A stretch of 31,524 nt of DNA from an uncultured Candidatus Saccharibacteria bacterium (GTDB taxonomy: Bacteria > Patescibacteriota > Andersenbacteria > UBA10190), in assembly GCA_964622915.1 (NCBI GenBank), contig CAZUSC010000021.1, forward strand, positions 1-31,524. Direction: 5' to 3'. Made by a program: the position numbers and the translations under genes. Position 1 is the first letter of the stretch. Every line of letters begins with the position of its first letter. Positions 13,229-31,524 of this stretch are shown in pieces. The notes under the pieces were generated by a model. That model saw nothing but the letters and a program-made list of their open reading frames with translations, ran no database searches and was not told the origin of the DNA.

Positions 13229-13276
13229 AAATTAACTAATCAGCATACACAATCCCGAGCGGGGTACCAAGCCGAC

Positions 13277-18487: not shown

Positions 18488-19924
18488 GTGTCTATAAGCT
18501 CATACACATATCGCCAACTGCCAAAAATAACTTTTATGGCTGCTTTGTTATTTTCGGCTGTCTTATTGGCACAATATCCCTCCACCACTACTTTTCCCAT
18601 CGGCGGTGATGCCGCACGCTATATTCAGAAATTAGTTGATGTGTATGTTAGCGCCAGTAATGGAAATTATTACGAGAGCCTCCGCTTGCTCGCCACCAAC
18701 ACCCGCTACCCTGGCGCGCAGATAATTTTTTCTGCATTTTCTCTGCTGCCGCTCTCCTGGCCGGATCGATTTATCTGGTGGCTCACTGCTGGTCATCTGT
18801 TTACCAGCCTGGCGCTCGGATTACTCCTTAAAAGAATCGCTGGCTGGCCATCAGCAGTGATCGCCATTGCTGCCTGGTCGCTCGTTACCATTGGACTCAC
18901 TCCTCACACCGAAGCGGGTACGGCCGCGCAGCTTTGGTCGCTGCCGCTGGTTCCTCTTTTTTTCTATATGATCGCACGCCAATCATATGCCGGAGTAATC
19001 GCCATAGTGGCTGCCAGTTTTTTTGTTCATCCATTTACCGCTGTTGTGTTAATGTTAGCGACGGTTTTGTCGCTACCCGCTTTGCTATTGTTGCATCAGC
19101 GTATACCCGTCGACCAAAAAAGGTTTTATATTTTTTGGATTGGGGTCGGCCTAAGCATGATAGCGGCCGGCCTTCTGGCAACGATCCGCTATTATTTAGC
19201 GGTGGCAGACCTAGTGGATGATTATTACAGTGTGTCCATCACTGATTGGCTGCGTTCACCCTTAGGTCCTTTTATTATTTGTGCTCCCTTTGGATTTTAT
19301 ATTTTATTCCAGCGAACCAGACATCAGCTCATAACATTTAGTACACTTGCCGTTTTTCTCTTTCTATCCATTCTACTAACCTTCAACGATGTCTTCGGCG
19401 TTCATCTTATGGTCGATCGCTGGCAGTCTTATGGAGTGATGAGCCTTGTTACCTTAGCCGCTTTGGCTCTGCCAAAACTATTGTCAGTCGTGTTTAATAA
19501 AATTTGGATTCGCGCGGCATTTGCCGTCCTGTTATTCCTGGCACTGGGACTACAGACTTGGCAGAACAACAGCCGGATATTTGCCTACTACGAATCCCCC
19601 GGCCGCTATGCCCGTCTACACCCGGAAGAAAGACAAGCAATTGAATGGTTAAAAAATAACACACCGTCCAGTTCCGTAATCGTTTCGACGCGGGCTAACC
19701 GTCACAGTGACTGGATACCTATTCTTGGCGATCGCCAGTGGCAAGGACTAACGGAGAGTGATCAATTTTGGCAGACTTTTCCCCCGCCCTCGAGTCCTTA
19801 CACTCATGCTGTTTTTTTTCTCCACCGGGAAAAACCAGCGGATGTTTTTCCTGCCGCCGACACTCTGCCAGTAGTGTATCAAAACGATAGTGCTGTAATT
19901 TATGATCTCCAGAACAACAACTAG
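18488..19924 (+). CDS. Polytopic membrane protein, probable GT-C-fold glycosyltransferase
   Basis: About 10-11 TM helices; first-loop acidic motif IGGDAARY; soluble C-terminus AIEWLKNNTP...IVS...W...VVYQND..VIY typical of GT-C-like proteins. Confidence 0.6.
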   Translation: MSISSYTYRQLPKITFMAALLFSAVLLAQYPSTTTFPIGGDAARYIQKLVDVYVSASNGNYYESLRLLATNTRYPGAQIIFSAFSLLPLSWPDRFIWWLTAGHLFTSLALGLLLKRIAGWPSAVIAIAAWSLVTIGLTPHTEAGTAAQLWSLPLVPLFFYMIARQSYAGVIAIVAASFFVHPFTAVVLMLATVLSLPALLLLHQRIPVDQKRFYIFWIGVGLSMIAAGLLATIRYYLAVADLVDDYYSVSITDWLRSPLGPFIICAPFGFYILFQRTRHQLITFSTLAVFLFLSILLTFNDVFGVHLMVDRWQSYGVMSLVTLAALALPKLLSVVFNKIWIRAAFAVLLFLALGLQTWQNNSRIFAYYESPGRYARLHPEERQAIEWLKNNTPSSSVIVSTRANRHSDWIPILGDRQWQGLTESDQFWQTFPPPSSPYTHAVFFLHREKPADVFPAADTLPVVYQNDSAVIYDLQNNN

Positions 19925-20251: not shown

Positions 20252-21166
20252 ATGAACAAATATGATCAAGCAGAGATTGACCTAACGTCTCTGCTTCAAA
20301 GGGCACTAAAGACTCGGCCGCGGCAAGGGCCGGCCATCACCCCTCTTGATATATTTGGTCAAAAAATAAAATTTTACGGCCAAGCTGTCCTTTATCGGCT
20401 GGGAATCTGGCAGCGACTTGTATCATCAAACCTAGCCATCGGCTGGTTTGATGATTTTCGTCATTACTGGATGCATGAGCTGGACATGCGGCGAATTGAC
20501 CTGCCAGATTTTTTTTACTTAAGAGGAGTTTATCGCTCCCGCTTTCAGGCTGTCGCCGTCAGCCAGACCCAGGAAGAGGACGCCGCTTTTCTCACGCCCT
20601 GGCAGCGTGCAGCCACCCTTTATCTGCTGTTTTCGTACGTCTATAAGCTAGCACTACATCCTATTTATATTTGGCAAATTAAGAATTTTATTAAGCGCGG
20701 TAACGCTGTCTGTGAATACGGCTGCGGTGTTGCTCCGGTCCTCGGCAATCTAGCCCATTTCTACCCGGACCGGCGGCTCACACTAACTGGTGCTGATATT
20801 CCGACCATCATGCTTCACTATGCCCGTTGGCGCCTGCAGAATTTTAAAAACGTAACCATCCAACAAATCGACCCCAATAATGACGCCCCGCTTACTGATC
20901 AATATAATCTAATTACTTGCCTGACTGTTTTCGAGCATTTGCCCCGCCCGCTGGCAATTGTTAAACACTTGCATGACCATCTAAAACCGCGCGGATATTT
21001 TGTTTTTGACTACATCAAAGCCGCCGGCACAGGGCTGGACACGGCTGGGGCGGTGCGGGAACGCCAACAGGTCCTAGACTTTGTTCGCAGTAACTTTGCT
21101 GTGGTGAAAGGCAAGATACCCGACGAGAACGTAAACATTAAAATGGTAATCTGCCGAAAGATTTAA
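20252..21166 (+). CDS. Class I SAM-dependent methyltransferase
   Basis: VCEYGCG motif I, GADI, YNLITCLTVFEHL, LKPRGYFVFD; unassigned N-terminal region of about 140 aa. Confidence 0.85.
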   Translation: MNKYDQAEIDLTSLLQRALKTRPRQGPAITPLDIFGQKIKFYGQAVLYRLGIWQRLVSSNLAIGWFDDFRHYWMHELDMRRIDLPDFFYLRGVYRSRFQAVAVSQTQEEDAAFLTPWQRAATLYLLFSYVYKLALHPIYIWQIKNFIKRGNAVCEYGCGVAPVLGNLAHFYPDRRLTLTGADIPTIMLHYARWRLQNFKNVTIQQIDPNNDAPLTDQYNLITCLTVFEHLPRPLAIVKHLHDHLKPRGYFVFDYIKAAGTGLDTAGAVRERQQVLDFVRSNFAVVKGKIPDENVNIKMVICRKI

Positions 21167-21183
21167 TAAGCCTAGATTTACAA

Positions 21184-22335
21184 TCAGTGTGCTTTTTCGA
21201 CATGCACCGGTAAGTAACCATTTGACCCGTATTGTCTGACTATTTCCTGAAATAGCTTATAAGGAATTCCTGTCGAGCCCGCCTTAGTGGCAGTTGTGGC
21301 AATATTGAGAATTAGATCAAATTTATCAAAGAGCAGTTTGTGGCGTGCCAAATTGCGGACATCATCCATAATAATCTGCGTTTCACAATCGGCGCAGAAG
21401 CGCGCTATATACCGACGTGCTCCTTGTAAATATAATTGTCGTTGGCGCAGATCGAATAAATCGACACCAACAAATTTTCTAAATCCATACTCGCGAAGAA
21501 TCGGCCAGTACATGCCAAAGCCGCTGCCCAAATCAAGAATGCGCATTGCTTGTGCTTTGTTGTAGCAATCCGGCTGCGTTAGAAATGCCTGTAAGGCGGG
21601 GCTGCCTTGCAAGACAAGTTGCCAGCGATGATACAAAGGTACCCTCGTCTGCCAAAGCCATAAATTAAGTATCGGCATGGCCAGGGCTTTTGGTACCAAT
21701 GCCCGCCAGGTGCGCTGCAGTGATTCGTCATGCAGCTGCCGCAAAAAGGCATGTGATTTTTCTTCAATTTCTTTTATACGCAGACTTTCGAGATTAGCCA
21801 CATCACTCGCTGTATGCACATCGATGTAATCCGTCTGGATAATACCTTTGTAGACACTTAAGGCTTCTTGCCAAACTACCTGGCGCCGCATGACGTGAAT
21901 GGCCGCATCCTCCAAGCCATTTTGGTCCACGCTAAAAATTTCCCAGCGGTCATGCTTAATCAATTTGGCAATGGCCTCATCAATTTTGGCCGCTTTTATT
22001 TGGGGAGAATTAGCTTGGATACGTGCCACAATTTCAATTTTTTCACCCCGCTTTTCCAGTTGGCTTACGGCGTGCTTTAAAACCTCTTGCGTCCAGACAT
22101 TATCCGCAGCGAGCTCCCGCGGCCGATCAATTACTTTGACTCCCAATTGAAGAGCCAACTTTTTTATTTCCCCATCTTCCGTTGAAACGTAAATAGCTGC
22201 AATGTATTTGGACTGCTGGCAGGCTTCTATTACCCATTGGAGCAAAGGCCGGCCAAAATAGGGATAAATGTTTTTGCGCGGCAAGCGCTTGCTCCCCCCG
22301 CGCGCCGGAATAATGGCTATAACTTTATCTTTCAT
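21184..22335 (-). CDS. NeuA/CMP-synthetase-like cytidylyltransferase fused to a C-terminal methyltransferase-like domain
   Basis: N-term IIPARGGSKRLPRKNI, VSTED, RPRELAAD, QANSP, IDVHTASD; C-term RILDLGSGFG, FVGVDLF, FDLIL. Confidence 0.85.
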   Translation of the reverse strand: MKDKVIAIIPARGGSKRLPRKNIYPYFGRPLLQWVIEACQQSKYIAAIYVSTEDGEIKKLALQLGVKVIDRPRELAADNVWTQEVLKHAVSQLEKRGEKIEIVARIQANSPQIKAAKIDEAIAKLIKHDRWEIFSVDQNGLEDAAIHVMRRQVVWQEALSVYKGIIQTDYIDVHTASDVANLESLRIKEIEEKSHAFLRQLHDESLQRTWRALVPKALAMPILNLWLWQTRVPLYHRWQLVLQGSPALQAFLTQPDCYNKAQAMRILDLGSGFGMYWPILREYGFRKFVGVDLFDLRQRQLYLQGARRYIARFCADCETQIIMDDVRNLARHKLLFDKFDLILNIATTATKAGSTGIPYKLFQEIVRQYGSNGYLPVHVEKAH

Positions 22336-23492
22336 AACTTGATGGACTGAATAAATTTATCACCGCTTAGGGAAGTACCGCCAACAACAACCTTTTTAAC
22401 CCCGGCCGGCAGCTCCACCACAGCGCGCAGCCGACCCTGCCACTGCGCCGCCAGCCAAGACAATGATCCGTCGGAGGCACGCATTCCAATAAAAGGACTC
22501 TTTTGATAAGTTGGCTGACTAAATTTTAAGCGAAGTTTATTGCCTTGAGTCGTCCAATTAACTTTTACCTTTACCGGCTTTAGTTGGGCACAAATTTGCA
22601 GCGCCTCCAGCGCGCGGCTGGATCGCCAGCGAATACCGGTTTCTTTAGCCACCTGCTTTACCATGGCCACTACGTAGACGGTCTCATCAAACATCTCCCG
22701 ATGGTCGTGGCTGAAATAAGATAAAATAACTGGCCGCTTATTTTTTTGCGCGTCTGTAAACGCTTGGCGCACATCTGCCGGTGTTAATACGTTGATCCGC
22801 GACCACAAATCAACACTGCGCACAATAAATCGGCGCATTTTTCCTGTTTTAAGAAAATTCTTGTGATGGGGATGATAGTAACCCCACGCGGCCGGCGCCC
22901 CATGCCAGTTAAAATCAAAAATATTCTTGGTCGGATACGATTGATCAGAAACGCGATTAGAGTAGTCAACCATCACATTGTCTTCCAGCCACTGCGAGGC
23001 TTTATTATCTTCAATAGTGCCGCCGGCGCGGTATGCTTCGGGCCAATCTTCCCGCTCGACGAGGCGATGCAAGAGAATATTTAAGTATTCCTGACTAGAG
23101 TCCCAGTCGTCACTCCACCCGTCTCCTGCGCCATCAGCGGGAGGATGATGATAGTGCCAATAAAATCCATCGGGCTGTGTGGGAAGGTGCTTAAAATGAT
23201 CATACGTATCATTATATTTAGCGATCCGCTGCTTCGGATTGGTTCGAAAGCCGGTGAAGTCCATAATGAACCAGTTATAAATATAGGGGCGGCCGAAGGA
23301 ATCAGCTTGGGCCCGGCGGAACTCCGGGTTGGTCAACCGCCTGATGCTTTTGCCAATATCGCGCCAATTAGCCATAAATTCGGCCGACCCGTCAGGCCGG
23401 CGCCGTACATCGCCGCCAATCGGGCCCTCGGTGTCCACACAATGTACGACCAGTACTTCCGCTCTACCCCTATTTGTTGAGGAACCAGCCAT
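22332..23492 (-). CDS. CE4/polysaccharide-deacetylase-like (WalW/WbmS-like) protein
   Basis: CVDTEG, WHYHH and YRAGG match the D.E / H.H / RAG pattern of WalW-type NodB-homology barrels. Assignment by motif recall only. Confidence 0.55.
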   Translation of the reverse strand: MAGSSTNRGRAEVLVVHCVDTEGPIGGDVRRRPDGSAEFMANWRDIGKSIRRLTNPEFRRAQADSFGRPYIYNWFIMDFTGFRTNPKQRIAKYNDTYDHFKHLPTQPDGFYWHYHHPPADGAGDGWSDDWDSSQEYLNILLHRLVEREDWPEAYRAGGTIEDNKASQWLEDNVMVDYSNRVSDQSYPTKNIFDFNWHGAPAAWGYYHPHHKNFLKTGKMRRFIVRSVDLWSRINVLTPADVRQAFTDAQKNKRPVILSYFSHDHREMFDETVYVVAMVKQVAKETGIRWRSSRALEALQICAQLKPVKVKVNWTTQGNKLRLKFSQPTYQKSPFIGMRASDGSLSWLAAQWQGRLRAVVELPAGVKKVVVGGTSLSGDKFIQSIKL

Positions 23493-24474
23493 ATTTAAGC
23501 AAGCCGCGTGTCAGGTCGTTGGCCCGGAAAAACGCCGCTAGCGACTCAACGTAATTCATGCGAGCTAAAATCGTCTGCCGTAAATCAGAATTAACCTGGC
23601 ATGACGACAGGGGGATGGGCGCGCTAAAACATCGGCCGATATTTTGGGTGATAAATCCCCGGCCGTTGCCAGCTTGAGTAGTTAAAAAAGCCGCCACGGT
23701 CCACGGCACAACTACATTGTCGCCATTGGGTTTAGCGATGCTGCCAAATACAAAGGAGGGGCCGCGCGGTATAGAAAAACCCATTTTTTTATCAGGCGCC
23801 TCAATAGCAATAAAATTGTTGTCACCGAGCCAGCGGTCAAAATCATTAAGCGCCTGGGCGGCGATTTCTCTGGCGCTATTCCAGAGTTGAGAAAAAGCAT
23901 CGGTATCGGGTTTTGTAAACCATCGGTCACGCAAGGTGGCCAGCGAATTCATAAATTGGTCATACTGTGTATCACCGGTAATTTGTTTCAGAAAATTCAA
24001 ACTGACGGAAAAAGATTTTAGTATGCGCAGGCCATGCAAAATGTCTGCTTCACTCTCCCACTGAAAGCGATTCAGCACAAAAAACCGCTCCGGCAGCCAA
24101 TCAAGTACCCGACAAATCAAATAGGTTAAATCATTATATTGATTGAATTGATACTGCTCACCGTACAGAAGACGCAAAGGAAACTCGTCAATAATACCGA
24201 TGTCCGCGATCGCCGATTCGTTCACTTTTAGGATTGAGCCGGTAGTGATTAAGCTGGCGACATCAGCCGGCAAACGATTCTCCAGATCAAGCGGGCTGGT
24301 CAGCCTATCTTTTAAGCAGACGACAAAATCCAGATCAGAAATGCCCGGGTGCTTAATAGTGCCGGCGCTGTAGACGGCCAAAATATCCGGATATGTTTTA
24401 GCCAGGTCAACAAATTTTTGCTGACTTTTAACATAAAAAGTTCGATCCAACGGTTTTGTATTAGTTGCGCTCAT
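23470..24474 (-). CDS. Pol-beta-superfamily nucleotidyltransferase-fold protein
   Basis: N-terminal AVYSAGTIKHPGISDLDFVV (hG..DxD signature) followed by a helical domain. Confidence 0.7.
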   Translation of the reverse strand: MSATNTKPLDRTFYVKSQQKFVDLAKTYPDILAVYSAGTIKHPGISDLDFVVCLKDRLTSPLDLENRLPADVASLITTGSILKVNESAIADIGIIDEFPLRLLYGEQYQFNQYNDLTYLICRVLDWLPERFFVLNRFQWESEADILHGLRILKSFSVSLNFLKQITGDTQYDQFMNSLATLRDRWFTKPDTDAFSQLWNSAREIAAQALNDFDRWLGDNNFIAIEAPDKKMGFSIPRGPSFVFGSIAKPNGDNVVVPWTVAAFLTTQAGNGRGFITQNIGRCFSAPIPLSSCQVNSDLRQTILARMNYVESLAAFFRANDLTRGLLKYGWFLNK

Positions 24475-25360
24475 ACACCTTAATCATAGTATTGATTAAG
24501 CGGCGAGCCCGCTCGAAATACTTCTCCCCCAGAACGGATTTTACTTCTTCAGGCACTGCGTTTGCCTTAACCCTAATCCCAGTAAATAGACTACGCACCG
24601 CTTCACAGCAAGTAACTAATTCTAATTCTTCGGCCGAAAAATATTCCTTTATTTTGATGAAGGATTCTCTCTTATATATCGGCTTATCAACTAGTCCAAT
24701 GAACAAGCTAGGCAGCAGAAGAACCAACGACACAAAATACTTCAACTGATAAAAATTATCGGCGGCCCGCTCAAAGTTATTCTGCAAATAAACGCCGTTT
24801 TTGCCGTGATGTGGTAGCTCGCCCTCGGCAGCCGCTCGTGCTAATAGGGCCCGCAAGTTATAGAAGTAGGCGATCTGCTCTGGGCGGGAATCGCGTCTGA
24901 AAAAATTTAGTTCAAGGCTGCCTAGCAAGGATTTGCCCAAGGCGATGGTGCTAATCGGTAAAAATGTTTCCGGGTAAAAATTAAGATCGGCCTGCGTAAT
25001 AAATTGGATGCCATGATGCTGGTGCGGATCGAATTGGTAAAGAAACTTCTCCAAGTCTAAAGCGGCCAGGCGGAATTTTTTAAACCTCCCCTCGTCTTGC
25101 AATGCAGCATCCTTAACAATGACCATTACGTCTAAGTCGCTCCAGTGGGCAATTATATCGCCCGTAGCCACGCTGGAATAAACTACTGCCCCCAATAAAT
25201 CCGCCGACATTTTTTTGAGTCCAGACGCCAGCTCTCGTACCGGGTCATATTTAGTTGAGGGAGGAGTTGCAAATTTGTCTAGCCTAATAGTAATAGGCTC
25301 GCTCGACTCCGGATATAACTGCACAGCCGAAAAAACCTGACCACGCAGCAGGTCTATCAC
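24461..25360 (-). CDS. Pol-beta-superfamily nucleotidyltransferase-fold protein (start uncertain)
   Basis: GAVVYSSVATGD....WSDLDVMVIV. Frame is open to 25540, but the upstream gene runs to 25377; GTG 25360 is the first non-overlapping start. Confidence 0.7.
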   Translation of the reverse strand: MIDLLRGQVFSAVQLYPESSEPITIRLDKFATPPSTKYDPVRELASGLKKMSADLLGAVVYSSVATGDIIAHWSDLDVMVIVKDAALQDEGRFKKFRLAALDLEKFLYQFDPHQHHGIQFITQADLNFYPETFLPISTIALGKSLLGSLELNFFRRDSRPEQIAYFYNLRALLARAAAEGELPHHGKNGVYLQNNFERAADNFYQLKYFVSLVLLLPSLFIGLVDKPIYKRESFIKIKEYFSAEELELVTCCEAVRSLFTGIRVKANAVPEEVKSVLGEKYFERARRLINTMIKVYERN

Positions 25361-25376
25361 ATAGTCAGGTTGGTCG

Positions 25377-26638
25377 TTAAGAACGGCGGATTTGTCCTGC
25401 AGCAGCCAATTCAGCAACTGGTTGGCGGCGGTCTGGAGCCCGGAAATCTTTGATATAGGCCAAGATTCGTTGCGCCGCCGGGTGGCCGTCGGTCCAACCG
25501 GAATAAGTTTCGTTAAAGGCATTGTAGTCCCCTGGCGCATCTGGTAAAGAATCTAGCATGGCATCCGCAACGCCCGCAAACCGGCCGGTAATAAGTGATA
25601 AAGGAAGGCTTTGGCTAACGAATCGGAAATTAAACAACGAATTCGGGCGTGTTGATAACACTTGCTCCGCTACGACCCGGCGCGGTTCGCTGCGCATATA
25701 GCCATGAAGTTTATCTACTGCCTGGGGAGCAAGGGCGATTGACGGCACGCCCGCGCCGGCCGCTTCCAAAACCATCATCGAGCCAAAATGTACGGCTAGG
25801 TGGCTTGCCTTCATTAATAAAGCGGAGGTGGAAGGATGTATTTGATCTGGCAGATCTTGCACATAGTAATCCGCCACTTTCAGAAAAGGTGATGCATCCC
25901 ATTGTTTGGCCCGCGACTTTACGACTAATTGCCAGCCACGCTCATTACAATATTGACGTAAGACATTGGCCCAGCGGCTTAGTTTATACTTGGTAGATAG
26001 CCCATAAAAAAGTAGGCTTGGTGATCGCGAATATTAGGTGTAAAGACAGACAACACTGGCTTGTTGGGGGATAAATTTAGCTGACGTGCTGCTTGCTCGC
26101 CATCAATTTCTCCAAAAACATCAATTAACGGACTGCCTAGAGACACAAAACGATCAGCCCATTTTTTATGATTGGGCTGCACGGCAAATTCCAGGTCGCG
26201 CCAGAAGTCGCTGGCGACGACTCTGCCGGCTAATAAAGACAGGCTGCGCTGGATCGGCGCCGGATCATCGTTGGAGGCCGGGACATAGATGGAATTAACA
26301 AAATAATCCAGTCCAAATACAGCGACGCCATCAGCGGCGAGAGCGGCAACATCCACCGCGAAATTTCGGTAGGGGTTGAGCAGGCAAAGGCGGTCGATGT
26401 GGCTGCCGCGGACAGACTGGGCCAGCTTACCGGATTTATAGACGTGGATATCGGACGGCGCCACCAACTGAAAAGTCTGCGCCAGCTGCGGCGGCGTAAT
26501 GGCATCGTATGGTTTGATCCGGTTGCTGGCATGCGGCACAAAGACGACCGGCTGAATTGCCTGTGGCGGCGCCCCAGACAACAGTGGTCCCAAAACTTTT
26601 AGGCTGCTGATTGTTTCAACAACAAAACCAACTCGCAT
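25377..26638 (-). pseudogene. Frameshifted GT-B-like gene (TagF/CDP-polyol phosphotransferase- or Kdo/sialyltransferase-like), about 420 aa if repaired
   Basis: 5' part 26638-25979 stops early. The -1 frame is open from 26033 to 25377 with LVVKSRAK, FGSMMVLEAAGAGVP and TDGHPAAQRI. One extra T in the T6 run (26006-26011) joins the two parts. Confidence 0.75.
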
Positions 26639-27516
26639 TATATTTGGCTGGCCGACTGCCTGACGGTGGCTTTACCTAGTTCCTGTGCTATGAGCCGATC
26701 AAGAAATGGCCCATGATACCCCAGCTCGGCGCACAACTTGGCCTGCCAACTCATGTCATGTGAACGGAGTAGCCCAGTGGGCTTATGGTAGTTATAAGGC
26801 TGGACGCGGCGCTGGTCAGCCTCGGCTGGATAAATATATTCTTCTGGTCGAGAAAAATCTTCGTAAAAATAAACTTGGTCGTCACCACACAGTTCGTAGA
26901 CACGCCGGGCCAGGCGGCCTTCATTACCGATGCGGTCCGCGTCGCACGCCGCGTCAAAATCCCAAAAATTGGTCTGGTGAGCAAAAGAATTATTTATCAG
27001 AAAAAAATTATCATCAATGTCTCCGTCCGGATGCTTGCCGTCAACATATTTCTGGCCGTAGCCGCGCGCAGCAAAGAGATAATTTTTCCTAGTCATCTTG
27101 GCTAGAATGTCATAAATAACATTTTCTAAGAGCGGCCAGGCAGCGGCATGCAGATGCAGGGTATAGTCCTGGCCAGAGGCAGCAGCTACCCGACAACCCC
27201 GGCTGATGCTGTCTAAAGTACGAGTACGCAGCTGCTGCTTAAAAAAACCGTAACGGCGATCGTGCAGGGGCCGCAAGCGAGAGGATCGGCGGGCGGGCAG
27301 AGAGTACCGACTGCCCCATAAAAAATTATCTACATAGCTTCGCTCCACCCAAGCAGGCAGCGCCACTTCCTCGGCTGTGCTCGATACTATTACTTTTAAG
27401 TTTGGACCGGTTGGCCAGTTGAGACGAAGAAGTTCTAATAATCCCTGCAACTCATCCCAGCGATCATACAAACTAATGGCTACCGCCAAAGAAGGTCGCT
27501 GCTGTCTCGCCGTCAT
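26638..27516 (-). CDS. GT-A-like putative glycosyltransferase
   Basis: AVAISLYDR..L..LL N-terminal strand/helix, KVIVSS, YTLHLHAAAW at the DxD position; overlaps both neighbours in the operon. Confidence 0.5.
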   Translation of the reverse strand: MTARQQRPSLAVAISLYDRWDELQGLLELLRLNWPTGPNLKVIVSSTAEEVALPAWVERSYVDNFLWGSRYSLPARRSSRLRPLHDRRYGFFKQQLRTRTLDSISRGCRVAAASGQDYTLHLHAAAWPLLENVIYDILAKMTRKNYLFAARGYGQKYVDGKHPDGDIDDNFFLINNSFAHQTNFWDFDAACDADRIGNEGRLARRVYELCGDDQVYFYEDFSRPEEYIYPAEADQRRVQPYNYHKPTGLLRSHDMSWQAKLCAELGYHGPFLDRLIAQELGKATVRQSASQI

Positions 27517-28247
27517 CGTACGCGCTGCTGCTGTCTGGCTAAATAAACAACGAGATCTTCCGGTGTCCCCAGACCATGCATTTGGGCCTCGGCTATTTCA
27601 TATATTCCTATCTTGGCTCCGGCGGCGATCGCATAGTTATAGGCCGGTGCAGTATAAAATTCATTGTTAGTCCGATCATTGTGTGAAATCATTTCGGCAG
27701 CCGCTTCCACAAAATCCTGGCCGCGCTGCCAGTAGTAAATTCCCACCGTCGCGTGACTACTGATAGCCTGCTTTTCCGCTACCAGATCAACTACTCCCAA
27801 GGAGTTAGTTCGAGCATAGCTCCACTTCGGATCAGCGCAAGGGAAAGTCAAAATAGATCCGTCCTTATTATTACTTTGGCTGTGATTCATGAATTCGGCC
27901 ATTGAAATATCGACCAGCTGGTCGCTGTTAGCGATGAGTAAGGGTTGGTCATTATTCAGTTGGCGTACTGCCCGTAAAACGGTGCAGGCCGCCCCTTCGG
28001 TGAGCCCTTCTATCTCTACTACGCTGGCATTAAATTGCTCCTTTAATTTAGTGAAAAAATCAGCATAGTCGCTGACATGTTGTTTTTGCGCAATCAAAAC
28101 AAACCGGGCATTAGGTGCTTGCAAATTATCTAACACCAGTTCAATCATTGGTCGGCCCATGACTTCAATGAAGGGTTTGGGAACAGTATAGCCCGCCTCC
28201 GCGAAGCGCTGTCCCGCGCCAGCCATTGGTACAACTATATTTATCAT
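27513..28247 (-). CDS. BcbE-like NTP transferase (sugar/polyol-phosphate nucleotidyltransferase)
   Basis: VVPMAGAGQRF..AGY..PKPFI, TEGAACTVL, LLIANSDQ, KWSY, AEKQAIS..ATVGIYY, NNEFY.AP.YN, GLGTPEDL. Confidence 0.88.
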   Translation of the reverse strand: MINIVVPMAGAGQRFAEAGYTVPKPFIEVMGRPMIELVLDNLQAPNARFVLIAQKQHVSDYADFFTKLKEQFNASVVEIEGLTEGAACTVLRAVRQLNNDQPLLIANSDQLVDISMAEFMNHSQSNNKDGSILTFPCADPKWSYARTNSLGVVDLVAEKQAISSHATVGIYYWQRGQDFVEAAAEMISHNDRTNNEFYTAPAYNYAIAAGAKIGIYEIAEAQMHGLGTPEDLVVYLARQQQRVR

Positions 28248-29698
28248 ATATTTTTTACAATCGTTACTGGGCTAACCACATTGGCAATGGAAGTCGGCCG
28301 AATCAATCGAGCAGCCTCCTGGGTATTATCATAATGCTGCAGAAAGAATTCAAGGTCCTCGGGAGTGGAAAAGCTCCACATTTTATTGATAGGAAAAGCG
28401 CGAATACGCGCTCCTGTCCGTACATATTGGTTGTAGACGGGGCAAACGAAATATTCTCCATTGGTGGATATCTTGGCCGCAATCATGTCTCGCGTATGCT
28501 GAAGATACTGATCTCCGCGGGCGAAATAATATATGCCGGCGGTAGCCTGGTTGCTAATTGGCTTCTTTTCGGCCGCTTCTGTTACCAAGCCGCTGTCTGC
28601 GGTTTTAACATAGCTCCATTTAGGATGAGTGGAAGTAAAGGTAACCAGTCCGCCATCGCACTCATCAGCCGACATAGCGTAGAAAAACTCATTACTGTTC
28701 CATTCTAGCAACTGATCGCAATTGACGATGGCCAATGGATCGGGCCCACTAATAAATTCCTCGGCTGCCAACACGGATAAAGCTGCTCCTTGCGTCGGCT
28801 GAGCCAGCTGAACAATGAAGCAACCCGGCGCAATTAGATTAAGTAAGTATTGTAGGTTGTATTTTTCATAATGCTCCCGCAATACTACAAAAATATACTG
28901 GGCTTCCGCGTTCATATTCTCCACTACCCACTGCACCATCGGCTTGCCTAAAACGTCTGCCAAGGGCTTAGGAAAGGTGTAGCCGGCGCGTTCAAAACTT
29001 CGGCCGGCACCGGCCATCGGAATTACAATACGCAAGCGCCGACCTTGCCATTTAGGAATAATCCGCCGGCGGGCCGCACTACCCGAGGCCAAGTCGATTG
29101 CCTCCTTGATTCGCTCATAGGTAACTTCGGCTGTTCCCGCCACGCCGCACAGCTGGGCCCCCGCGCCGTGCGCTGCCGCACGACCATGATGTGAGTCTTC
29201 GACCACCAAGCATTCGGCAGGAGCAGCGCCTAATTGCAAAAATGCTCGCAGATATACTTCCGGATGAGGCTTGGGATGACTGACATCTTCGTTGGATAAG
29301 AAAAATTTAACCCTTGACATTAACCCTTTCTTCTTAAGCATAAGCTGAACGGTTTCTCGCACCGCGTTAGAACAAACAGAAATTGTATAGCCTTCTTGGG
29401 ACAGCCGATCGAGCAGCGCCATTAATTTTTGATCCGGGACAAATTTTTCTTTAATTACCAGCTGGGTTTGCCGCTGCTTTTCCTGCCATATTTCCTTATG
29501 CAGCCGCCTGGGCAACCCCTTTTTAGCCGAAAGTAGTTCCAGTTTACGGCGCGTTGGCAAGCCGTCATACACGGCTAGGTGTTCATCGCGTTCAATGGCG
29601 TAGCCATGCTTGCTTAAGGCACGATTCAGCGCCTCATAATGCAGTTCGCGGGCATCTACCAATACGCCATCCAAGTCAAAAATAATATGCTTAATCAT
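28244..29698 (-). CDS. HAD phosphatase fused to a BcbE-like NTP transferase
   Basis: N-term IIFDLDGVL, CSNA, KPHPEVY, VEDSHHG; C-term IPMAGAGRSF..AGYTFPKPL, NCDQ, KWSY, AEKKPIS, FSTPEDL. Confidence 0.9.
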   Translation of the reverse strand: MIKHIIFDLDGVLVDARELHYEALNRALSKHGYAIERDEHLAVYDGLPTRRKLELLSAKKGLPRRLHKEIWQEKQRQTQLVIKEKFVPDQKLMALLDRLSQEGYTISVCSNAVRETVQLMLKKKGLMSRVKFFLSNEDVSHPKPHPEVYLRAFLQLGAAPAECLVVEDSHHGRAAAHGAGAQLCGVAGTAEVTYERIKEAIDLASGSAARRRIIPKWQGRRLRIVIPMAGAGRSFERAGYTFPKPLADVLGKPMVQWVVENMNAEAQYIFVVLREHYEKYNLQYLLNLIAPGCFIVQLAQPTQGAALSVLAAEEFISGPDPLAIVNCDQLLEWNSNEFFYAMSADECDGGLVTFTSTHPKWSYVKTADSGLVTEAAEKKPISNQATAGIYYFARGDQYLQHTRDMIAAKISTNGEYFVCPVYNQYVRTGARIRAFPINKMWSFSTPEDLEFFLQHYDNTQEAARLIRPTSIANVVSPVTIVKNI

Positions 29699-30438
29699 AC
29701 CAGGCTCTTAACTACTTTATACAGTTCCTGAAAATTATCCACCGTGGCCTCCGGAATAATCTGTTGCTCGTATGGGCGGTTATCAGAGTGCCGGTCAGCC
29801 GCAAATAATACTCCGGCAATCCCCAAGGCCTTGGCGCTGCCAATATCATCATAAAGCCTGTCGCCAATCAAAACAGTGGCTTGGCGGTCAAAGGCAATCT
29901 TTTTCTGTACATACTCCAGAAAGTTGGGGTGGGGTTTGCGGTATCCCACCTGGGCGGAGATAATTACTTCATCAAATAAATCAGACATCTTATAGCGCTT
30001 CAGGGAAGTTAAGACAAACTCCTCCGCCGGTGTATTGGATAAAAGGACTAATTTAAAACCTTCTTGCTTAAACCGCTTTAATATACGAAATGCCTCACTA
30101 AATGGCCGGGTCAACGCCAATTCCGGGCCTAAATAGATAAGTTCGGCTTGCTTGAACTTTTTTTTGTCCAGCGTATGTCCAAACCGGGCCAGAACTTTTT
30201 TAAGTAAGTCCGACAGTTTATACTCAACACGCTCCTGCTTTGCCCGGCTTCTTAATTTCCTGCCCTCGGCTAAAAGTCCTTCCACTAAAGCTGCTTCGTC
30301 TTTAACAACTCGTCCCTGATCCTTTAACCAATCTACTAAAGAAACAGCCCCGGCGCGGTTTTCCCTTTCCCAATCTATGGAACTGGCAAAGACCGTCCCA
30401 GCCATATCAAATAGCAAGTATCTTTTTCTCTGTTTCAT
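29695..30438 (-). CDS. HAD-superfamily hydrolase with DxA motif I
   Basis: LLFDMAGT, LLSNT, RKPHP, IGDRLYDDI. Confidence 0.88.
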   Translation of the reverse strand: MKQRKRYLLFDMAGTVFASSIDWERENRAGAVSLVDWLKDQGRVVKDEAALVEGLLAEGRKLRSRAKQERVEYKLSDLLKKVLARFGHTLDKKKFKQAELIYLGPELALTRPFSEAFRILKRFKQEGFKLVLLSNTPAEEFVLTSLKRYKMSDLFDEVIISAQVGYRKPHPNFLEYVQKKIAFDRQATVLIGDRLYDDIGSAKALGIAGVLFAADRHSDNRPYEQQIIPEATVDNFQELYKVVKSLV

Positions 30439-30450
30439 CTAAACTCCCAA

Positions 30451-31386
30451 TTAATAGTGACGGACTAATACGCCCAGCCCGTTGCCATTGGTGCGAACTT
30501 CATATGAATATTGATAGCCACGCTTAGCTGCTTCCTGATGGCTGATCGGCAAGCGGGGCACTAGAAAATGAGCTTCTTGATGTGGTGGTTCTTCTGGTTT
30601 GGGAACCTGGCGGAATGGGCGGCTAGTGTCGATGTTTAAGTTAACTCTGTGCCCATCATTATGCACTTGGGCAAATAATTCCGCATCGGGTTTTAGCCAG
30701 CCATCAGTTTCGATCCAACAAACTTTCTTGTCTTTCAGCCAATCGCTGATGGCAGCCTGATTATTATCGGCACAGTGGATTACATCATGAAAAACTATCG
30801 CCCCTCCTTTGCGCAGTAGCGGCAGCCACAAATCTATTTCTTTCCGTTTTAAGCTATAAGTATGCTGCGAATCAACCATTATTAGATCTAAAGGCTGATC
30901 ATTATATTTTCTCCGCCAATCCTCTCTAAATGCCACGCTATCACTATGGATGCGCTTGAACGAATCAGTTAGACCATAGTAAGCAATATTATAAGCAACG
31001 AAATCAGCAAAACTATTACTGGGGTCAATAGAATACAGTTTGCCTCCGGCAGCTTGGGCAGCCGCCGCTAACACTACCGTAGATATACCTTCACAAATTC
31101 CAAATTCTATAATGTTTTTCGCATTTATCGCGCGGCATAACTTGAATAAGTACCAGGCATGCGGTTCAAAACCGCGCGGATATTGGGATTTATGCTGCCA
31201 AGAAACCTTCGGAGCAAAGCGGTGGATAGCGGCCAAATTGCCCTGTTCAATATCATTGACGGCTATTAGTCTCTTAATTTGCTGGTGTTTTTCAGGGTGC
31301 TTATCATAACGTAAAACATGCCAGACCAGTAAGTAGCCTCGATGAGCCAAGCGCTGCCAATCATACTTTATACGGTCCCAAATCAT
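30451..31386 (-). CDS. Class I SAM-dependent methyltransferase (Methyltransf_24-like)
   Basis: IIEFGICEGIST, LYSIDP, IHSDS, DLIMVDSQHTY, LRKGGAIVFHD; GGGAG-type Shine-Dalgarno before the next gene. Confidence 0.85.
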   Translation of the reverse strand: MIWDRIKYDWQRLAHRGYLLVWHVLRYDKHPEKHQQIKRLIAVNDIEQGNLAAIHRFAPKVSWQHKSQYPRGFEPHAWYLFKLCRAINAKNIIEFGICEGISTVVLAAAAQAAGGKLYSIDPSNSFADFVAYNIAYYGLTDSFKRIHSDSVAFREDWRRKYNDQPLDLIMVDSQHTYSLKRKEIDLWLPLLRKGGAIVFHDVIHCADNNQAAISDWLKDKKVCWIETDGWLKPDAELFAQVHNDGHRVNLNIDTSRPFRQVPKPEEPPHQEAHFLVPRLPISHQEAAKRGYQYSYEVRTNGNGLGVLVRHY

Positions 31387-31401
31387 GAATGACGCCTCGC
31401 T

Positions 31402-31524
31402 CTAACCCAAAACTGACTGGCGCTGACTGATGGCTGAAAAAATCTCTTTAAAACTTTCCAATTCTTCGGGCGTTCCCAAACTGTAGTGAAAATCAACCGG
31501 CATGACTTTAATCTTTTTTCCTTT
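31402..31524 (-). CDS. 3' end of a third BcbE-like NTP transferase (truncated by the window edge)
   Basis: Hand translation KGKKIKVMPVDFHYSLGTPEELESFKEIF...VLG*. SLGTPEEL parallels GLGTPEDL and SFSTPEDL of the two upstream paralogues. Confidence 0.7.
   Translation of the reverse strand, partial: KGKKIKVMPVDFHYSLGTPEELESFKEIFSAISQRQSVLG

What the first reader, a model, noticed from the sequence alone, without database searches (positions are those of the whole stretch)
21184..31524. Nucleotidyltransferase-dense operon: candidate undescribed pathway for activating and attaching phospho-substituents to a surface glycan
Seen: one overlapped operon with at least six nucleotidyl-handling domains of three folds (3 BcbE-like, 1 NeuA-like, 2 Pol-beta-like), two HADs, two methyltransferase domains, a CE4-like enzyme and only two GT-like genes. 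No sugar epimerase, dehydratase or NeuB-type synthase is in view. Established: BcbE-like proteins occur in capsule loci, and NDP-activated polyol or sugar phosphates are donors for phosphodiester decoration. Inference: several small phosphorylated metabolites are trimmed (HAD), activated (BcbE/NeuA-like), transferred (Pol-beta-fold, GT-B), then methylated or deacylated. I do not recognise this combination as a characterised pathway.
Basis: partly seen in the sequence, partly recalled or inferred. Interest (0 to 1): 0.72.

Follow-up and report, generated by a model that had tools for sequence, protein, structure and literature searches.

The report
Rare nucleotide-sugar and glycan-tailoring operon
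This is a real, tightly packed operon of sugar-activating and tailoring enzymes, the visible part of a rare ~20-gene cluster seen in only a handful of uncultured bacteria; several of its enzymes belong to families nobody has described, so its product cannot yet be named.

Summary
Eleven co-directional minus-strand genes (21184-31524), mostly with overlapping stop and start codons, encode three BcbE-type sugar-phosphate nucleotidyltransferases (one cut by the contig end), two HAD domains, a NeuA-like cytidylyltransferase fused to a methyltransferase-like domain, a Methyltransf_24 enzyme, two Pol-beta-type nucleotidyltransferases, a GT-B-fold protein and two unknowns.

The set recurs gene for gene (44-85% identity) in five other lineages. 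These show what the window lacks: upstream, a divergent RuBisCO-like protein, a GatZ-like protein and an MsbA/PglK-like ABC exporter; downstream, NeuB and a KdsC-like phosphatase.

So the "no NeuB" argument fails. Part of the cluster looks like a Kdn/sialic-acid-type CMP-ulosonate branch. The GT-B protein matches UDP-GlcNAc 2-epimerases best by fold.

"CE4-like" is not supported. "Three folds" is really two. Here the GT-B gene carries a 1-nt frameshift in a T tract, and NeuB/KdsC are absent.

The phospho-substituent reading is neither shown nor excluded. The GT-B family (9 proteins found) and one Pol-beta family (18 found) are very rare. The Pol-beta pair recurs, tandem or fused, in polysaccharide loci of many phyla.

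Verdict: an undescribed variant of a nucleotide-sugar/glycan-tailoring locus, of moderate interest.

The parts
31402..31524 (-). NT1: last 40 aa of a BcbE-type sugar-phosphate nucleotidyltransferase. The gene is cut by the end of the window, which is also the contig end.
   Evidence: 75% identical to the C-terminus of the 247-aa NTP_transferase of L001. Stop codon at 31402-31404. The contig length equals the window length (row P0001).
30451..31386 (-). Class I SAM methyltransferase (Methyltransf_24 / O-methyltransferase-like), 311 aa
   Evidence: PF13578, E=1.8e-20, 74 bits. Intact here. L002, the relative's second contig covering the same locus as L001, keeps only an 82-aa remnant (L002 2756-3001, 68% identical).
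29695..30438 (-). Stand-alone HAD-IA hydrolase, 247 aa (TIGR02253/CTE7-like)
   Evidence: PF13419, 60 bits; TIGR02253 E=8e-27 but below its cut-off. Orthologs in L001 (60%) and L007 (50%).
28244..29698 (-). Fusion of a beta-phosphoglucomutase-like HAD domain (aa 1-190) with a BcbE-type nucleotidyltransferase (NT2, aa 222-450), 484 aa
   Evidence: HAD_2, 108 bits; NTP_transferase, 33 bits. 7,893 of 8,000 scored candidates have E<=1e-5; the best 120 are full-length relatives at 53-85% identity, from bacteria and archaea.
27513..28247 (-). NT3: BcbE-type sugar-phosphate nucleotidyltransferase, 244 aa
   Evidence: PF00483, 42 bits. PDB 4EVW 'nucleoside-diphosphate-sugar pyrophosphorylase', E=6e-21. 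The GxGxR, PKP, D and EK signature residues are kept in all three paralog groups.
26638..27516 (-). u292: unknown protein, 292 aa, with invariant HLHAAAWP and GDIDDNFF motifs. Possibly a GT-A-like transferase, by motif only.
   Evidence: No Pfam, NCBIfam or PDB hit. Orthologs at 48-70% in L001, L007, L008, L010. Not found in the JGI metagenome scan.
25377..26638 (-). GT-B-fold protein (about 420 aa) split into two ORFs by a 1-nt deletion in a T tract (T6 at 26006-26011; orthologs imply T7)
   Evidence: tblastn with the 419-aa L001 ortholog covers both ORFs in two frames; sequence. Only 9 family members were found among 5.8e9 proteins. AF2 model of ortholog P0139: pLDDT 87. Best Foldseek matches are UDP-GlcNAc 2-epimerases, E=7e-12, TM 0.55-0.66, then the GT4 enzyme MshA.
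24461..25360 (-). PolbA: Pol-beta-superfamily nucleotidyltransferase, about 299 aa. Likely GTG start at 25360; the longer ORF from 25540 overlaps the upstream gene.
   Evidence: Invariant GS...WSDxD...D motif. The family profile hits CdnD at E=4.6e-4 and ANT(3''). The L023 homolog passes Pfam NTP_transf_2. Start inferred from the 302-aa L001 ortholog.
23470..24474 (-). PolbB: second Pol-beta-motif protein, 334 aa, with an invariant C-terminal GLLKYGW motif
   Evidence: Only 18 proteins found among 5.8e9. Invariant G38, G44, S46, D47, D49. AF2 pLDDT 91, but no PDB fold match better than E=0.6. hhalign to PolbA aligns the catalytic motifs, E=3.3e-4.
22332..23492 (-). u386: unknown enzyme-like protein, 386 aa, with conserved DTEGP, WHYHHP, RAGG and HD.R motifs
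   Evidence: 326 cluster representatives in 1.84e9 proteins. No Pfam family for the core domain in 39 members. No PDB sequence hit. No hhalign match to one CE4 protein.
21184..22335 (-). NeuA-like CMP-ulosonate synthetase domain (aa 1 to about 185) fused to a methyltransferase-like domain (aa ~230-383)
   Evidence: PF02348, 87 bits; PseF model E=3e-30, below its cut-off. CMP-NeuAc synthetases in PDB, E=5e-24. Methyltransf_23 reaches only 18.7 bits. In L006 the two halves are separate genes or are fused differently.
20252..21166 (+). Convergent class I methyltransferase (304 aa), a conserved neighbour of the cluster
   Evidence: Methyltransf_23, E=8e-17. Orthologs in the same convergent position in L001 (46%) and L006 (47%).

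Best explanation
The region is the distal two-thirds of a rare, conserved cluster of about 20 genes. The cluster makes several nucleotide-activated sugars or sugar-like units and tailors or transfers them onto a cell-surface glycan. That glycan is assembled by the neighbouring GT4, AsnB, GT2 and membrane-protein genes.

Shown:
- Three paralogous BcbE-type NTases keep all catalytic signature residues, so up to three NDP-activated donors could be made.
- One NTase is fused to a beta-PGM-like HAD domain, and a second HAD stands alone.
- A NeuA-like cytidylyltransferase is fused to a methyltransferase-like domain.
- In relatives this gene is followed by NeuB and a KdsC-family phosphatase. The cluster there starts with a divergent RuBisCO-like protein and a GatZ-like protein, and includes an MsbA/PglK-like ABC exporter.

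Inferred:
1. Sugar phosphates are prepared upstream.
2. The HAD domains act as mutase or bisphosphate phosphatase, to give the monophosphate that each NTase activates.
3. A second branch condenses a sugar (or sugar phosphate) with PEP (NeuB), dephosphorylates it (KdsC-like), CMP-activates it and methylates it (NeuA-like/MT fusion). This gives a Kdn/sialic-acid-like ulosonate.
4. The GT-B-fold protein is either a NeuC-like hydrolysing 2-epimerase that feeds NeuB, or a transferase.
5. The PolbA/PolbB pair, u292, u386 and the Methyltransf_24 enzyme transfer or tailor the units.
6. The lipid-linked product is flipped by the ABC exporter.

In this window the ulosonate branch is incomplete: there is no NeuB or KdsC. 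The GT-B gene is frameshifted in a homopolymer tract.
For: - Domain calls.
- Gene-for-gene collinearity with L001/L002 (a MAG labelled Candidatus Saccharibacteria), L007, L008/L009 and L010, and partly L006.
- Upstream RLP, GatZ-like protein and ABC exporter, and downstream NeuB and KdsC-like phosphatase, in relatives. Typing: NeuB_NnaB 258 bits, below its 399.65-bit cut-off; the KdsC subfamily cut-off is passed; MsbA/PglK-like ABC; RLP only 74 bits to rubisco_III.
- GT-B fold with 2-epimerases as best matches.
- NTase signature residues conserved in all three paralog groups.
- Adjacent GT4, AsnB, GT4, GT2 and polytopic membrane protein.
- The HAD-NTase fusion and its partner NTase lie in polysaccharide loci elsewhere.
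- bcbE is genetically required for a capsule side-chain sugar: PMC13552107.
Against: - No substrate is identified for any enzyme. No dehydratase, aminotransferase, kinase or reductase is in the window.
- The window itself has no NeuB or KdsC: tblastn finds none, and only 17 nt (21167-21183) separate the stop codons of the two convergent genes. The ulosonate branch here rests on relatives.
- The GT-B gene is frameshifted.
- The 2-epimerase similarity is by fold only. No sequence-level hit to PDB epimerases was found, and GT4 enzymes follow closely in the fold ranking.
- BcbE homology was not tested directly, because no BcbE sequence was available.
- The upstream genes of this very genome cannot be seen, because the contig ends at 31524.
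Confidence: 0.5

Rival explanations
1. The NTases make NDP-activated polyol or sugar phosphates with a non-anomeric phosphate, as in CDP-ribitol, CDP-glycerol or CDP-6-fructose. The HADs trim bisphosphates. The Pol-beta-fold pair acts like LicD or fukutin, transferring the phospho-unit to a glycan hydroxyl and releasing NMP. The result is phosphodiester decoration.
For: - Two Pol-beta NTase-motif proteins are always paired.
- LicD and fukutin/FKRP use this fold for phospho-substituent transfer (established knowledge, not tested here).
- Phosphodiester-handling genes recur beside the same HAD-NTase module: GDPD in L008, L010 and L031, a gene annotated 'phosphodiesterase' in L005, and Exo_endo_phos in L031.
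- An AAA_28 kinase-like gene sits next to an NTase in L008 and L031.
- A GatZ-like protein (ketose-bisphosphate family) lies upstream in relatives.
Against: - Neither Pol-beta protein gives a LicD or any other Pfam hit.
- The PolbB model has no significant PDB fold match.
- In distant loci the Pol-beta pair occurs without BcbE-type NTases, next to Wzx/Wzt and a B12 radical-SAM enzyme.
- bcbE genetics concern a glycosidic fructose branch.
- No reductase or kinase is in the window.
Confidence: 0.25
2. In this particular genome the operon is a decaying remnant. It has lost NeuB and the KdsC-like phosphatase and carries a frameshifted GT-B gene, so it no longer makes its original product.
For: - NeuB and KdsC are present in L001, L006 and L010 (NeuB also in L007) but absent here, with only 17 nt (21167-21183) left between the convergent stop codons.
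- A 1-nt deletion sits in a T tract of the GT-B gene.
- Gene content is fluid: there is a Methyltransf_24 remnant in L002.
Against: - All other genes are intact, with overlapping, translationally coupled junctions, and 48-85% identity to orthologs.
- A single homopolymer indel is a typical assembly error or phase-variation switch.
- NeuB could lie elsewhere: the contig is only 31.5 kb.
Confidence: 0.15
3. The cluster does not decorate a surface glycan. Instead it makes an exported small molecule or a lipid head group, such as a nucleotide-sugar-derived metabolite or a phosphoglycolipid, secreted by the MsbA-like ABC exporter.
For: - An MsbA/HepA/PglK-like half-transporter is the most constant partner of the HAD-NTase fusion.
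- Sugar-phosphate carbon-skeleton enzymes (RLP, GatZ-like, transketolase) recur nearby.
- Few canonical glycosyltransferases lie inside the operon.
Against: - The cluster is flanked by GT4/GT2 genes here and in L001 and L006.
- The Pol-beta pair lies in Wzx or Wzm/Wzt polysaccharide loci elsewhere.
- NeuB/NeuA-type branches normally feed glycoconjugates (established knowledge).
Confidence: 0.1

Closest known systems
Kdn / sialic-acid-type CMP-ulosonate pathways (NeuC-NeuB-NeuA; Kdn-9-P synthase, Kdn-9-P phosphatase and CMP-Kdn synthetase of Bacteroides thetaiotaomicron)
   Same: - A NeuA-like cytidylyltransferase domain is in the window.
- In relatives it is followed by a NeuB+SAF synthase and a KdsC/YrbI-family phosphatase that also hits the Kdn-9-P phosphatase model.
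- A GT-B-fold protein has NeuC/WecB 2-epimerases as its best structural matches.
   Different: - The window has no NeuB or phosphatase.
- The NeuA-like domain is shortened and fused to a methyltransferase-like domain.
- All equivalog models score below their cut-offs.
- There is no sequence-level relation of the GT-B protein to epimerases.
- There are no Leg/Pse-type dehydratase, aminotransferase or acetyltransferase genes.
- About ten further genes have no counterpart in these pathways.
BcbE/BcbF/BcbG side-chain module of the Pasteurella multocida type B capsule (fructose branch)
   Same: - Small GT-A-fold NTase of the type that PGAP names 'glycosyltransferase family 2 protein'.
- It sits in a polysaccharide locus and is needed for a side-chain sugar, not for the backbone (PMC13552107).
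   Different: - Sequence relatedness to BcbE itself could not be tested here.
- The biochemistry of BcbE is unknown.
- Here there are three paralogs, one fused to a HAD domain, plus an ABC exporter and RLP in relatives.
- No kps-type capsule export genes are present.
LicD / fukutin-FKRP phospho-substituent transferases and aminoglycoside nucleotidyltransferases (Pol-beta fold)
   Same: - hG[GS]...DxD catalytic motif.
- An N-terminal NTase core followed by a helical domain.
- The profile hits ANT(3'') and CdnD.
- Located in glycan loci.
   Different: - No Pfam LicD or NTP_transf_2 hit for the window proteins.
- No significant PDB fold match for PolbB.
- They always come as an A+B pair, or as an ~815-aa protein matching both, or at least the PolbA half.
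- PolbB has a unique invariant GLLKYGW C-terminus.
Sugar-phosphate mutase/phosphatase plus nucleotidyltransferase routes (ManB-ManC; GmhB-HddC in GDP-heptose synthesis)
   Same: - A HAD enzyme paired with an NTP_transferase-family enzyme, here covalently fused.
- A PMI-like cupin lies nearby in relatives.
   Different: - The HAD domain is beta-PGM-like (HAD-IA), not the GmhB type. It scores below the beta-PGM and subfamily cut-offs.
- The NTases score far below every equivalog cut-off.
- The substrate is unknown.

Membership tests
Sugar-1-phosphate nucleotidyltransferase (Pfam NTP_transferase PF00483) | Score above the Pfam gathering cut-off | tested here: met
   NT3: 42.4 bits against a 21.2-bit cut-off. 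NT2 domain: 32.9 bits against 21.2. NT1 is seen only as 40 aa, but its L001 ortholog carries PF00483.
Sugar-1-phosphate nucleotidyltransferase (Pfam NTP_transferase PF00483) | N-terminal G-x-G-x-R loop, P-K-P lysine, Mg-binding Asp and E-K motif | tested here: met
   G9, G11, K23, D109, E157 and K158 are invariant or nearly invariant across the NT1, NT2 and NT3 groups.
Sugar-1-phosphate nucleotidyltransferase (Pfam NTP_transferase PF00483) | Membership of a named equivalog (RmlA, GalU, GlmU, HddC, MurU and others) | tested here: not met
   The best hit, rmlA_long, scores 52 bits against a 320-bit cut-off. All others are lower.
BcbE-like NTase (CDD GT2_BcE_like, recalled from memory) | Direct sequence similarity to P. 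multocida BcbE | not testable with these tools
   No BcbE sequence was reachable. Indirect evidence only: homologs are annotated 'glycosyltransferase family 2 protein' by PGAP, and the nearest structure is 4EVW.
HAD superfamily, subfamily IA | Pfam HAD_2 above cut-off, with DxDGxxxD motif I | tested here: met
   108 bits (fusion protein) and 60 bits (stand-alone HAD) against a 23.8-bit cut-off. 'FDLDGVLVD' is at residues 7-15 of the fusion.
Beta-phosphoglucomutase (TIGR01990) / PGMB-YQAB subfamily (TIGR02009) | Score above the curated cut-off | tested here: not met
   78 bits against 189, and 105 bits against 153. The domain is beta-PGM-like, but no mutase versus phosphatase call is possible.
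CMP-ulosonate synthetase (CTP_transf_3; NeuA/KdsB/PseF) | Pfam PF02348 above cut-off and similarity to solved CMP-NeuAc synthetases | tested here: met
   86.8 bits against 22.6, but only profile positions 1-121 of 217 are matched. PDB 6IFD E=5e-24 over residues 2-124.
CMP-ulosonate synthetase (CTP_transf_3; NeuA/KdsB/PseF) | Equivalog-level match (PseF, KdsB) | tested here: not met
   PseF: 105 bits against 206. KdsB models: 66 bits or less against 155-281.
Nonulosonate/Kdn biosynthesis locus | NeuB-type PEP-condensing synthase in the locus | tested here: not met
   Absent from the window (tblastn; ORFs). Present next to the NeuA-like gene in L001, L006, L007 and L010.
Nonulosonate/Kdn biosynthesis locus | NeuC-type hydrolysing 2-epimerase | tested here: inconclusive
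   The top 33 Foldseek hits of the GT-B ortholog model are UDP-GlcNAc 2-epimerases (E=7e-12 to 6.5e-10). TM is only 0.55-0.66, and the GT4 enzyme MshA follows at E=7e-10. No Pfam Epimerase_2 hit and no PDB sequence hit.
Pol-beta superfamily nucleotidyltransferase | hG[GS] x(9-13) D-h-[DE] catalytic motif conserved across the family | tested here: met
   PolbA: S63, S74, D75 invariant and D77 nearly invariant. PolbB: G38, G44, S46, D47, D49 invariant. The two motifs align with each other.
Pol-beta superfamily nucleotidyltransferase | Significant profile or fold match to known members | tested here: inconclusive
   PolbA: CdnD E=4.6e-4, and its L023 homolog scores 22.3 bits on NTP_transf_2 against a 21-bit cut-off. 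PolbB: no Pfam hit. Foldseek gives only weak hits (MNT, 3C18; E>1).
LicD / fukutin phosphotransferases | Pfam LicD match | tested here: not met
   No Pfam family at E<=0.01 for either Pol-beta protein, nor among 18 PolbB relatives at E<=1.
Carbohydrate esterase family 4 (NodB / Polysacc_deac_1) | Pfam/NCBIfam match, or profile similarity to a CE4 domain | tested here: not met
   No family for u386 or for 39 relatives. The profile finds no PDB CE4. hhalign against one CE4 protein gives probability 0.06%, which is a weak test. Motif resemblance only.
TagF-like CDP-glycerol glycerophosphotransferase / GT-B glycosyltransferases | Pfam Glyphos_transf or Glycos_transf_1 match | tested here: not met
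   No Pfam hit for either half of the GT-B gene. Only the GT-B fold itself is supported.
Class I SAM methyltransferase | Pfam methyltransferase domain above cut-off | tested here: met
   Met for 30451-31386: Methyltransf_24, 74 bits against 26.3. The C-terminal domain of 21184-22335 is inconclusive: Methyltransf_23 scores 18.7 bits against 27, but a SAM motif I 'ILDLGSGFG' is present.

The most novel reading that the evidence does not exclude
PolbA/PolbB is a previously unrecognised two-subunit enzyme, sometimes fused, with a nucleotidyltransferase fold. It is found in polysaccharide loci of bacteria and archaea. It would install a new kind of non-glycosidic (phosphodiester or nucleotidyl) modification on glycans. 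The very widespread, highly conserved HAD-NTase fusion and its paralogs would supply a still unknown class of NDP-activated donors, for example NDP-ketoses or NDP-sugar phosphates, built from skeletons made by a RuBisCO-like protein.
Probability: 0.25. Interest if true: 0.75.

Novelty: new variant of a known kind. Interest (0 to 1): 0.55.

Why it matters
If the reading is right, the locus gives access to three things.

1. A highly conserved bifunctional HAD-nucleotidyltransferase with no known substrate. Of 8,000 candidates scored, 7,893 have E<=1e-5, and the best 120 are 53-85% identical across bacteria and archaea. It probably makes an uncharacterised nucleotide-activated sugar.

2. A paired Pol-beta-fold enzyme that recurs in O-antigen and capsule-type loci of many phyla. 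It has no described function.

3. An unusual link between a RuBisCO-like protein and glycan precursor synthesis, in uncultured, probably episymbiotic, bacteria. The cell surfaces of such bacteria are central to their lifestyle.

Each enzyme is small and soluble, and can be tested directly in vitro.

Tried and rejected
- Exact-sequence look-ups of two window proteins found nothing. The window is the entire contig, so the upstream part of this genome's operon could not be retrieved.
- Two JGI metagenome scans found no relatives: the Methyltransf_24 protein and the u292 profile.
- PDB sequence searches were empty for PolbB and gave no significant hit for u292, u386 or the GT-B profile.
- The Foldseek search of the high-confidence PolbB model gave no significant match.
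- The Pfam scan of 39 u386 relatives found only accessory domains. hhalign of u386 against one CE4 protein was negative.
- Literature searches found no description of this cluster or of the biochemistry of BcbE-type enzymes. Terms tried: RuBisCO-like protein + nucleotidyltransferase + polysaccharide; HAD/beta-PGM-NTase fusions; kfoD/kfoE; CDP-2-glycerol Gtp2/3; Saccharibacteria + nonulosonic/NeuB. The C. jejuni HS1 paper was not informative for this module.
- Rejected: a teichoic-acid (TagF/TagD/TarI), LicC/LicD, heptose (GmhB/HddC) or Leg/Pse pathway as a gene-for-gene match. Their defining families or equivalog scores are absent.
- Rejected: the 359-aa ORF from 25540 as the PolbA gene. Orthologs start about 60 codons later.

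Full report
**Setting.** The window is a bacterial chromosome fragment, and it is a whole contig: the window's own protein is listed on one contig of 31,524 bases. It carries:
- an F-type ATP synthase operon and an H+-pyrophosphatase;
- a plus-strand glycan-assembly operon. Its genes are GT4 (12902-14509), an asparagine-synthase-type amidotransferase, GT4, GT2, a 478-aa polytopic membrane protein and a methyltransferase. A GT2 gene (12518-13228) lies on the minus strand at its 5' end;
- converging on that operon, the minus-strand operon of the finding.

**Observation.** From 31524 down to 21184 there are ten complete genes and one gene cut by the contig end. Junctions range from a 23-nt overlap to a 16-nt gap, and most are 4-nt ATGA-type overlaps. 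Domain calls are as follows.
- *Cut NTase.* The last 40 aa of a nucleotidyltransferase lie at 31402-31524. They are 75% identical to the 247-aa NTP_transferase of a related locus.
- *Methyltransferase.* A Methyltransf_24 enzyme.
- *HAD.* A stand-alone HAD-IA hydrolase.
- *HAD-NTase fusion.* A 484-aa fusion of a beta-phosphoglucomutase-like HAD domain with an NTP_transferase domain.
- *Free NTase.* A 244-aa NTP_transferase. Its nearest solved structure is the uncharacterised 'nucleoside-diphosphate-sugar pyrophosphorylase' 4EVW.
- *Five proteins with no Pfam or NCBIfam match*.
- *NeuA-like fusion.* A NeuA-like cytidylyltransferase domain (PF02348, 87 bits; CMP-NeuAc synthetases, E=5e-24) is fused to a domain with a SAM-binding motif. 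That domain gives only a sub-threshold methyltransferase score.

- The two ORFs 25979-26638 and 25377-25877 are one gene. The 419-aa ortholog aligns across both in two frames. The break is a T6 run at 26006-26011, where orthologs' protein sequence requires T7.
- The 359-aa ORF starting at 25540 probably starts at the GTG at 25360.
- 'CE4-like' for the 386-aa protein finds no support.
- NTP_transferase and CTP_transf_3 belong to one fold class (Pfam GT-A clan; my knowledge). The operon therefore has two nucleotidyl-handling folds, not three.

**Related loci.** The HAD-NTase fusion has a very large, conserved family. Of 8,000 candidates scored, 7,893 have E<=1e-5, and the best 120 are full-length proteins 53-85% identical, from bacteria and archaea.

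Its closest relative (85%) lies in a MAG labelled Candidatus Saccharibacteria. That locus is collinear with the window gene for gene. The same order recurs in four further lineages: L007, L008/L009, L010 and, in part, L006.

The relatives show what the window cannot.
- *Upstream:* two unknown proteins, a GatZ/KbaZ-like protein, a very divergent RuBisCO-like protein (74 bits to the form III model, whose cut-off is 497), the first NTase, and an MsbA/PglK-like ABC exporter.
- *Downstream of the NeuA-like gene:* a NeuB+SAF synthase and a KdsC/YrbI-family phosphatase. The phosphatase also hits the Kdn-9-phosphate phosphatase model.

The window differs from them in three ways.
- It lacks NeuB and the phosphatase. 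Only 17 nt (21167-21183) separate the stop codons of the convergent genes.
- It has an intact Methyltransf_24 gene where L002 keeps only an 82-aa remnant.
- It carries the frameshift described above.

The argument that no NeuB-type synthase belongs to the system is an artefact of this copy.

**The unknown proteins.**
- *PolbB (334 aa).* Only 18 relatives were found among 5.8 billion proteins. G38, G44, S46, D47 and D49 ('G..PGISDLDF') and a C-terminal GLLKYGW are invariant. The AlphaFold model is confident (pLDDT 91). It has no PDB match better than E=0.6; only small NTase-fold proteins appear, weakly.
- *PolbA.* It has the classic GS...SDxD...D pattern. Its profile hits the CD-NTase CdnD (E=4.6e-4) and, sub-threshold (E=0.024-0.12), two putative nucleotidyltransferases and streptomycin adenylyltransferase. 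A Methanosarcinales homolog passes Pfam NTP_transf_2. The two families align at the catalytic motif.
- *The pair.* Matches to both are adjacent in 13 of 17 distant MAG loci (tandem in 12, divergent in L022); four show only one. One ~815-aa ORF holds the PolbA match in L025, L027 and L029 and the PolbB match in L029. The MAGs span Nitrospirae, Desulfobacterales, Anaerolineae, Nitrospinota, WOR-3, Bacteroidetes, Planctomycetia, Spirochaetales, Woesearchaeota and Methanosarcinales.
- *Context of the pair.* The order is Wzx flippase, PolbA, PolbB, then a B12-binding radical-SAM enzyme (convergent in L023), then GT4 or GT9 genes in L014 and L015; in L023 the GT2/GT4 genes lie upstream of Wzx. Alternatively the order is Wzm, Wzt, PolbA, PolbB, GT4. 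The pair is thus a general module of polysaccharide loci. It is not tied to BcbE-type NTases.
- *GT-B protein.* Nine relatives were found. A model of the ortholog (pLDDT 87) has a GT-B fold. Its 33 best PDB matches are UDP-GlcNAc 2-epimerases (WecB/MnaA; NeuC ranks lower), E down to 7e-12, TM 0.55-0.66. The GT4 enzyme MshA follows. There is no sequence-level link.
- *u386.* It has 326 cluster representatives but no family assignment.
- *u292.* It is known only from these clusters.

**The NTases.** The three paralog groups are about 35-38% identical to one another. Each is conserved as its own lineage, and all keep the G-x-G-x-R, P-K-P, Asp and E-K signature residues. None looks like a dead subunit.

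Outside this cluster, the module 'HAD plus two such NTases' is common. On plasmids PGAP annotates it as 'HAD family phosphatase' plus 'glycosyltransferase family 2 protein'. Its recurring neighbours are:
- an MsbA-like ABC exporter;
- phosphodiesterases (GDPD, Exo_endo_phos);
- an AAA_28 kinase-like protein;
- WavE;
- a PMI-like cupin;
- sugar-phosphate carbon-skeleton enzymes (transketolase; RLP).

The only functional datum I found for the name-giving protein is genetic. bcbE and bcbG mutants of P. multocida type B lose the fructose side chain of the capsule (PMC13552107). I could not align the window proteins with BcbE itself.

**Mechanism.**
- *Shown:* domain identities, conserved catalytic motifs, operon structure, conserved synteny, and a glycan-locus context.
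- *Inferred:* the cluster is a multi-branch factory for activated sugars.

In one branch, HAD enzymes (mutase or bisphosphate phosphatase) deliver monophosphates to three NTases, giving NDP-activated units. These units may derive from ketose phosphates handled by the GatZ-like and RuBisCO-like proteins.

In the other branch, NeuB, the KdsC-like phosphatase and the NeuA-like/methyltransferase fusion make a methylated CMP-ulosonate of the Kdn/sialic-acid kind. The GT-B protein is either a NeuC-like hydrolysing epimerase or a transferase.

PolbA/B, u292, u386 and Methyltransf_24 transfer or tailor the units. The ABC exporter flips the lipid-linked product.

Whether the NDP units are transferred as glycosyl residues or as phospho-substituents is unresolved. 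Phosphodiesterase neighbours and the Pol-beta fold favour phospho-substituents. The BcbE genetics, and the independence of the Pol-beta pair from these NTases, favour glycosyl transfer.

**Novelty and verdict.** This is a nucleotide-sugar/glycan-tailoring locus, which is a known kind. Its combination of genes was not found described in the literature searched. At least five of its protein families are unannotated, and two are extremely rare. I rate it a new variant of a known kind, interest 0.55.

Noticed in passing
window 26006-26011 (minus-strand T6 tract inside the GT-B-fold gene 25377-26638): A single-base deletion in a homopolymer splits the gene into 219-aa and 166-aa ORFs. Both halves are still 55% identical to the intact ortholog. 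It could be an assembly error, phase variation or a recent pseudogene.
   Followed up: partly
L014, L015, L017, L023 (Wzx-PolbA-PolbB-B12 radical SAM); L016 (Wzm-Wzt-PolbA-PolbB); L025, L027, L029 (~815-aa ORFs): The two Pol-beta-motif proteins form a conserved pair: adjacent in 13 of 17 distant loci, and inside one 814-823-aa ORF in three (both halves matched only in L029). It sits in polysaccharide loci of at least ten bacterial and archaeal phyla, usually right after the flippase or ABC exporter and often before a B12-binding radical-SAM enzyme. No function is described.
   Followed up: partly
L001 6925-8238, L007 347-1660, L010 2998-4308 (upstream of the part seen in the window): A very divergent RuBisCO-large-subunit-like protein (74 bits to the form III model; a similar score to the OiaX decarboxylase model) is embedded in the cluster, next to a GatZ/KbaZ-like protein and an NTase. 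This is an unusual link between an RLP and glycan precursor genes.
   Followed up: partly
L002 2756-3001 compared with window 30451-31386: The Methyltransf_24 gene is intact in the window but reduced to an 82-aa remnant (68% identical) in the closest relative. Conversely, NeuB and the KdsC-like phosphatase are present there and absent here. Gene content in this cluster turns over quickly.
   Followed up: yes
window 28244-29698 and its relatives; L003, L005, L030, L031: The HAD-NTase fusion is a huge family, conserved at 53-60% identity across bacteria and archaea, with only generic names ('HAD-IA family hydrolase'). It recurs with an MsbA-like ABC exporter, a second NTase, GDPD or other phosphodiesterases, AAA_28 and WavE.
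   Followed up: partly
window 18488-19924 (+): A 478-aa ORF with no Pfam hit and at least six distinct hydrophobic segments. It is probably a GT-C-like, polymerase or ligase-type membrane protein of the adjacent glycan operon.
   Followed up: partly
window 12518-13228 (-) and 12902-14509 (+): The listed TTG start of the GT4 ORF overlaps the divergent GT2 gene by about 330 nt. The GT4 Pfam domains begin only at residue 140, so the true start is probably further downstream.
   Followed up: no
L004 (Rhizobium rosettiformans plasmid p1), 15703-19337: About 5 kb from the HAD/'GT2' pair lies a set annotated as a RuBisCO large-subunit-like protein, a split transketolase/DXP-synthase-like protein and MtnA. 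The link to the NTase module is uncertain.
   Followed up: no
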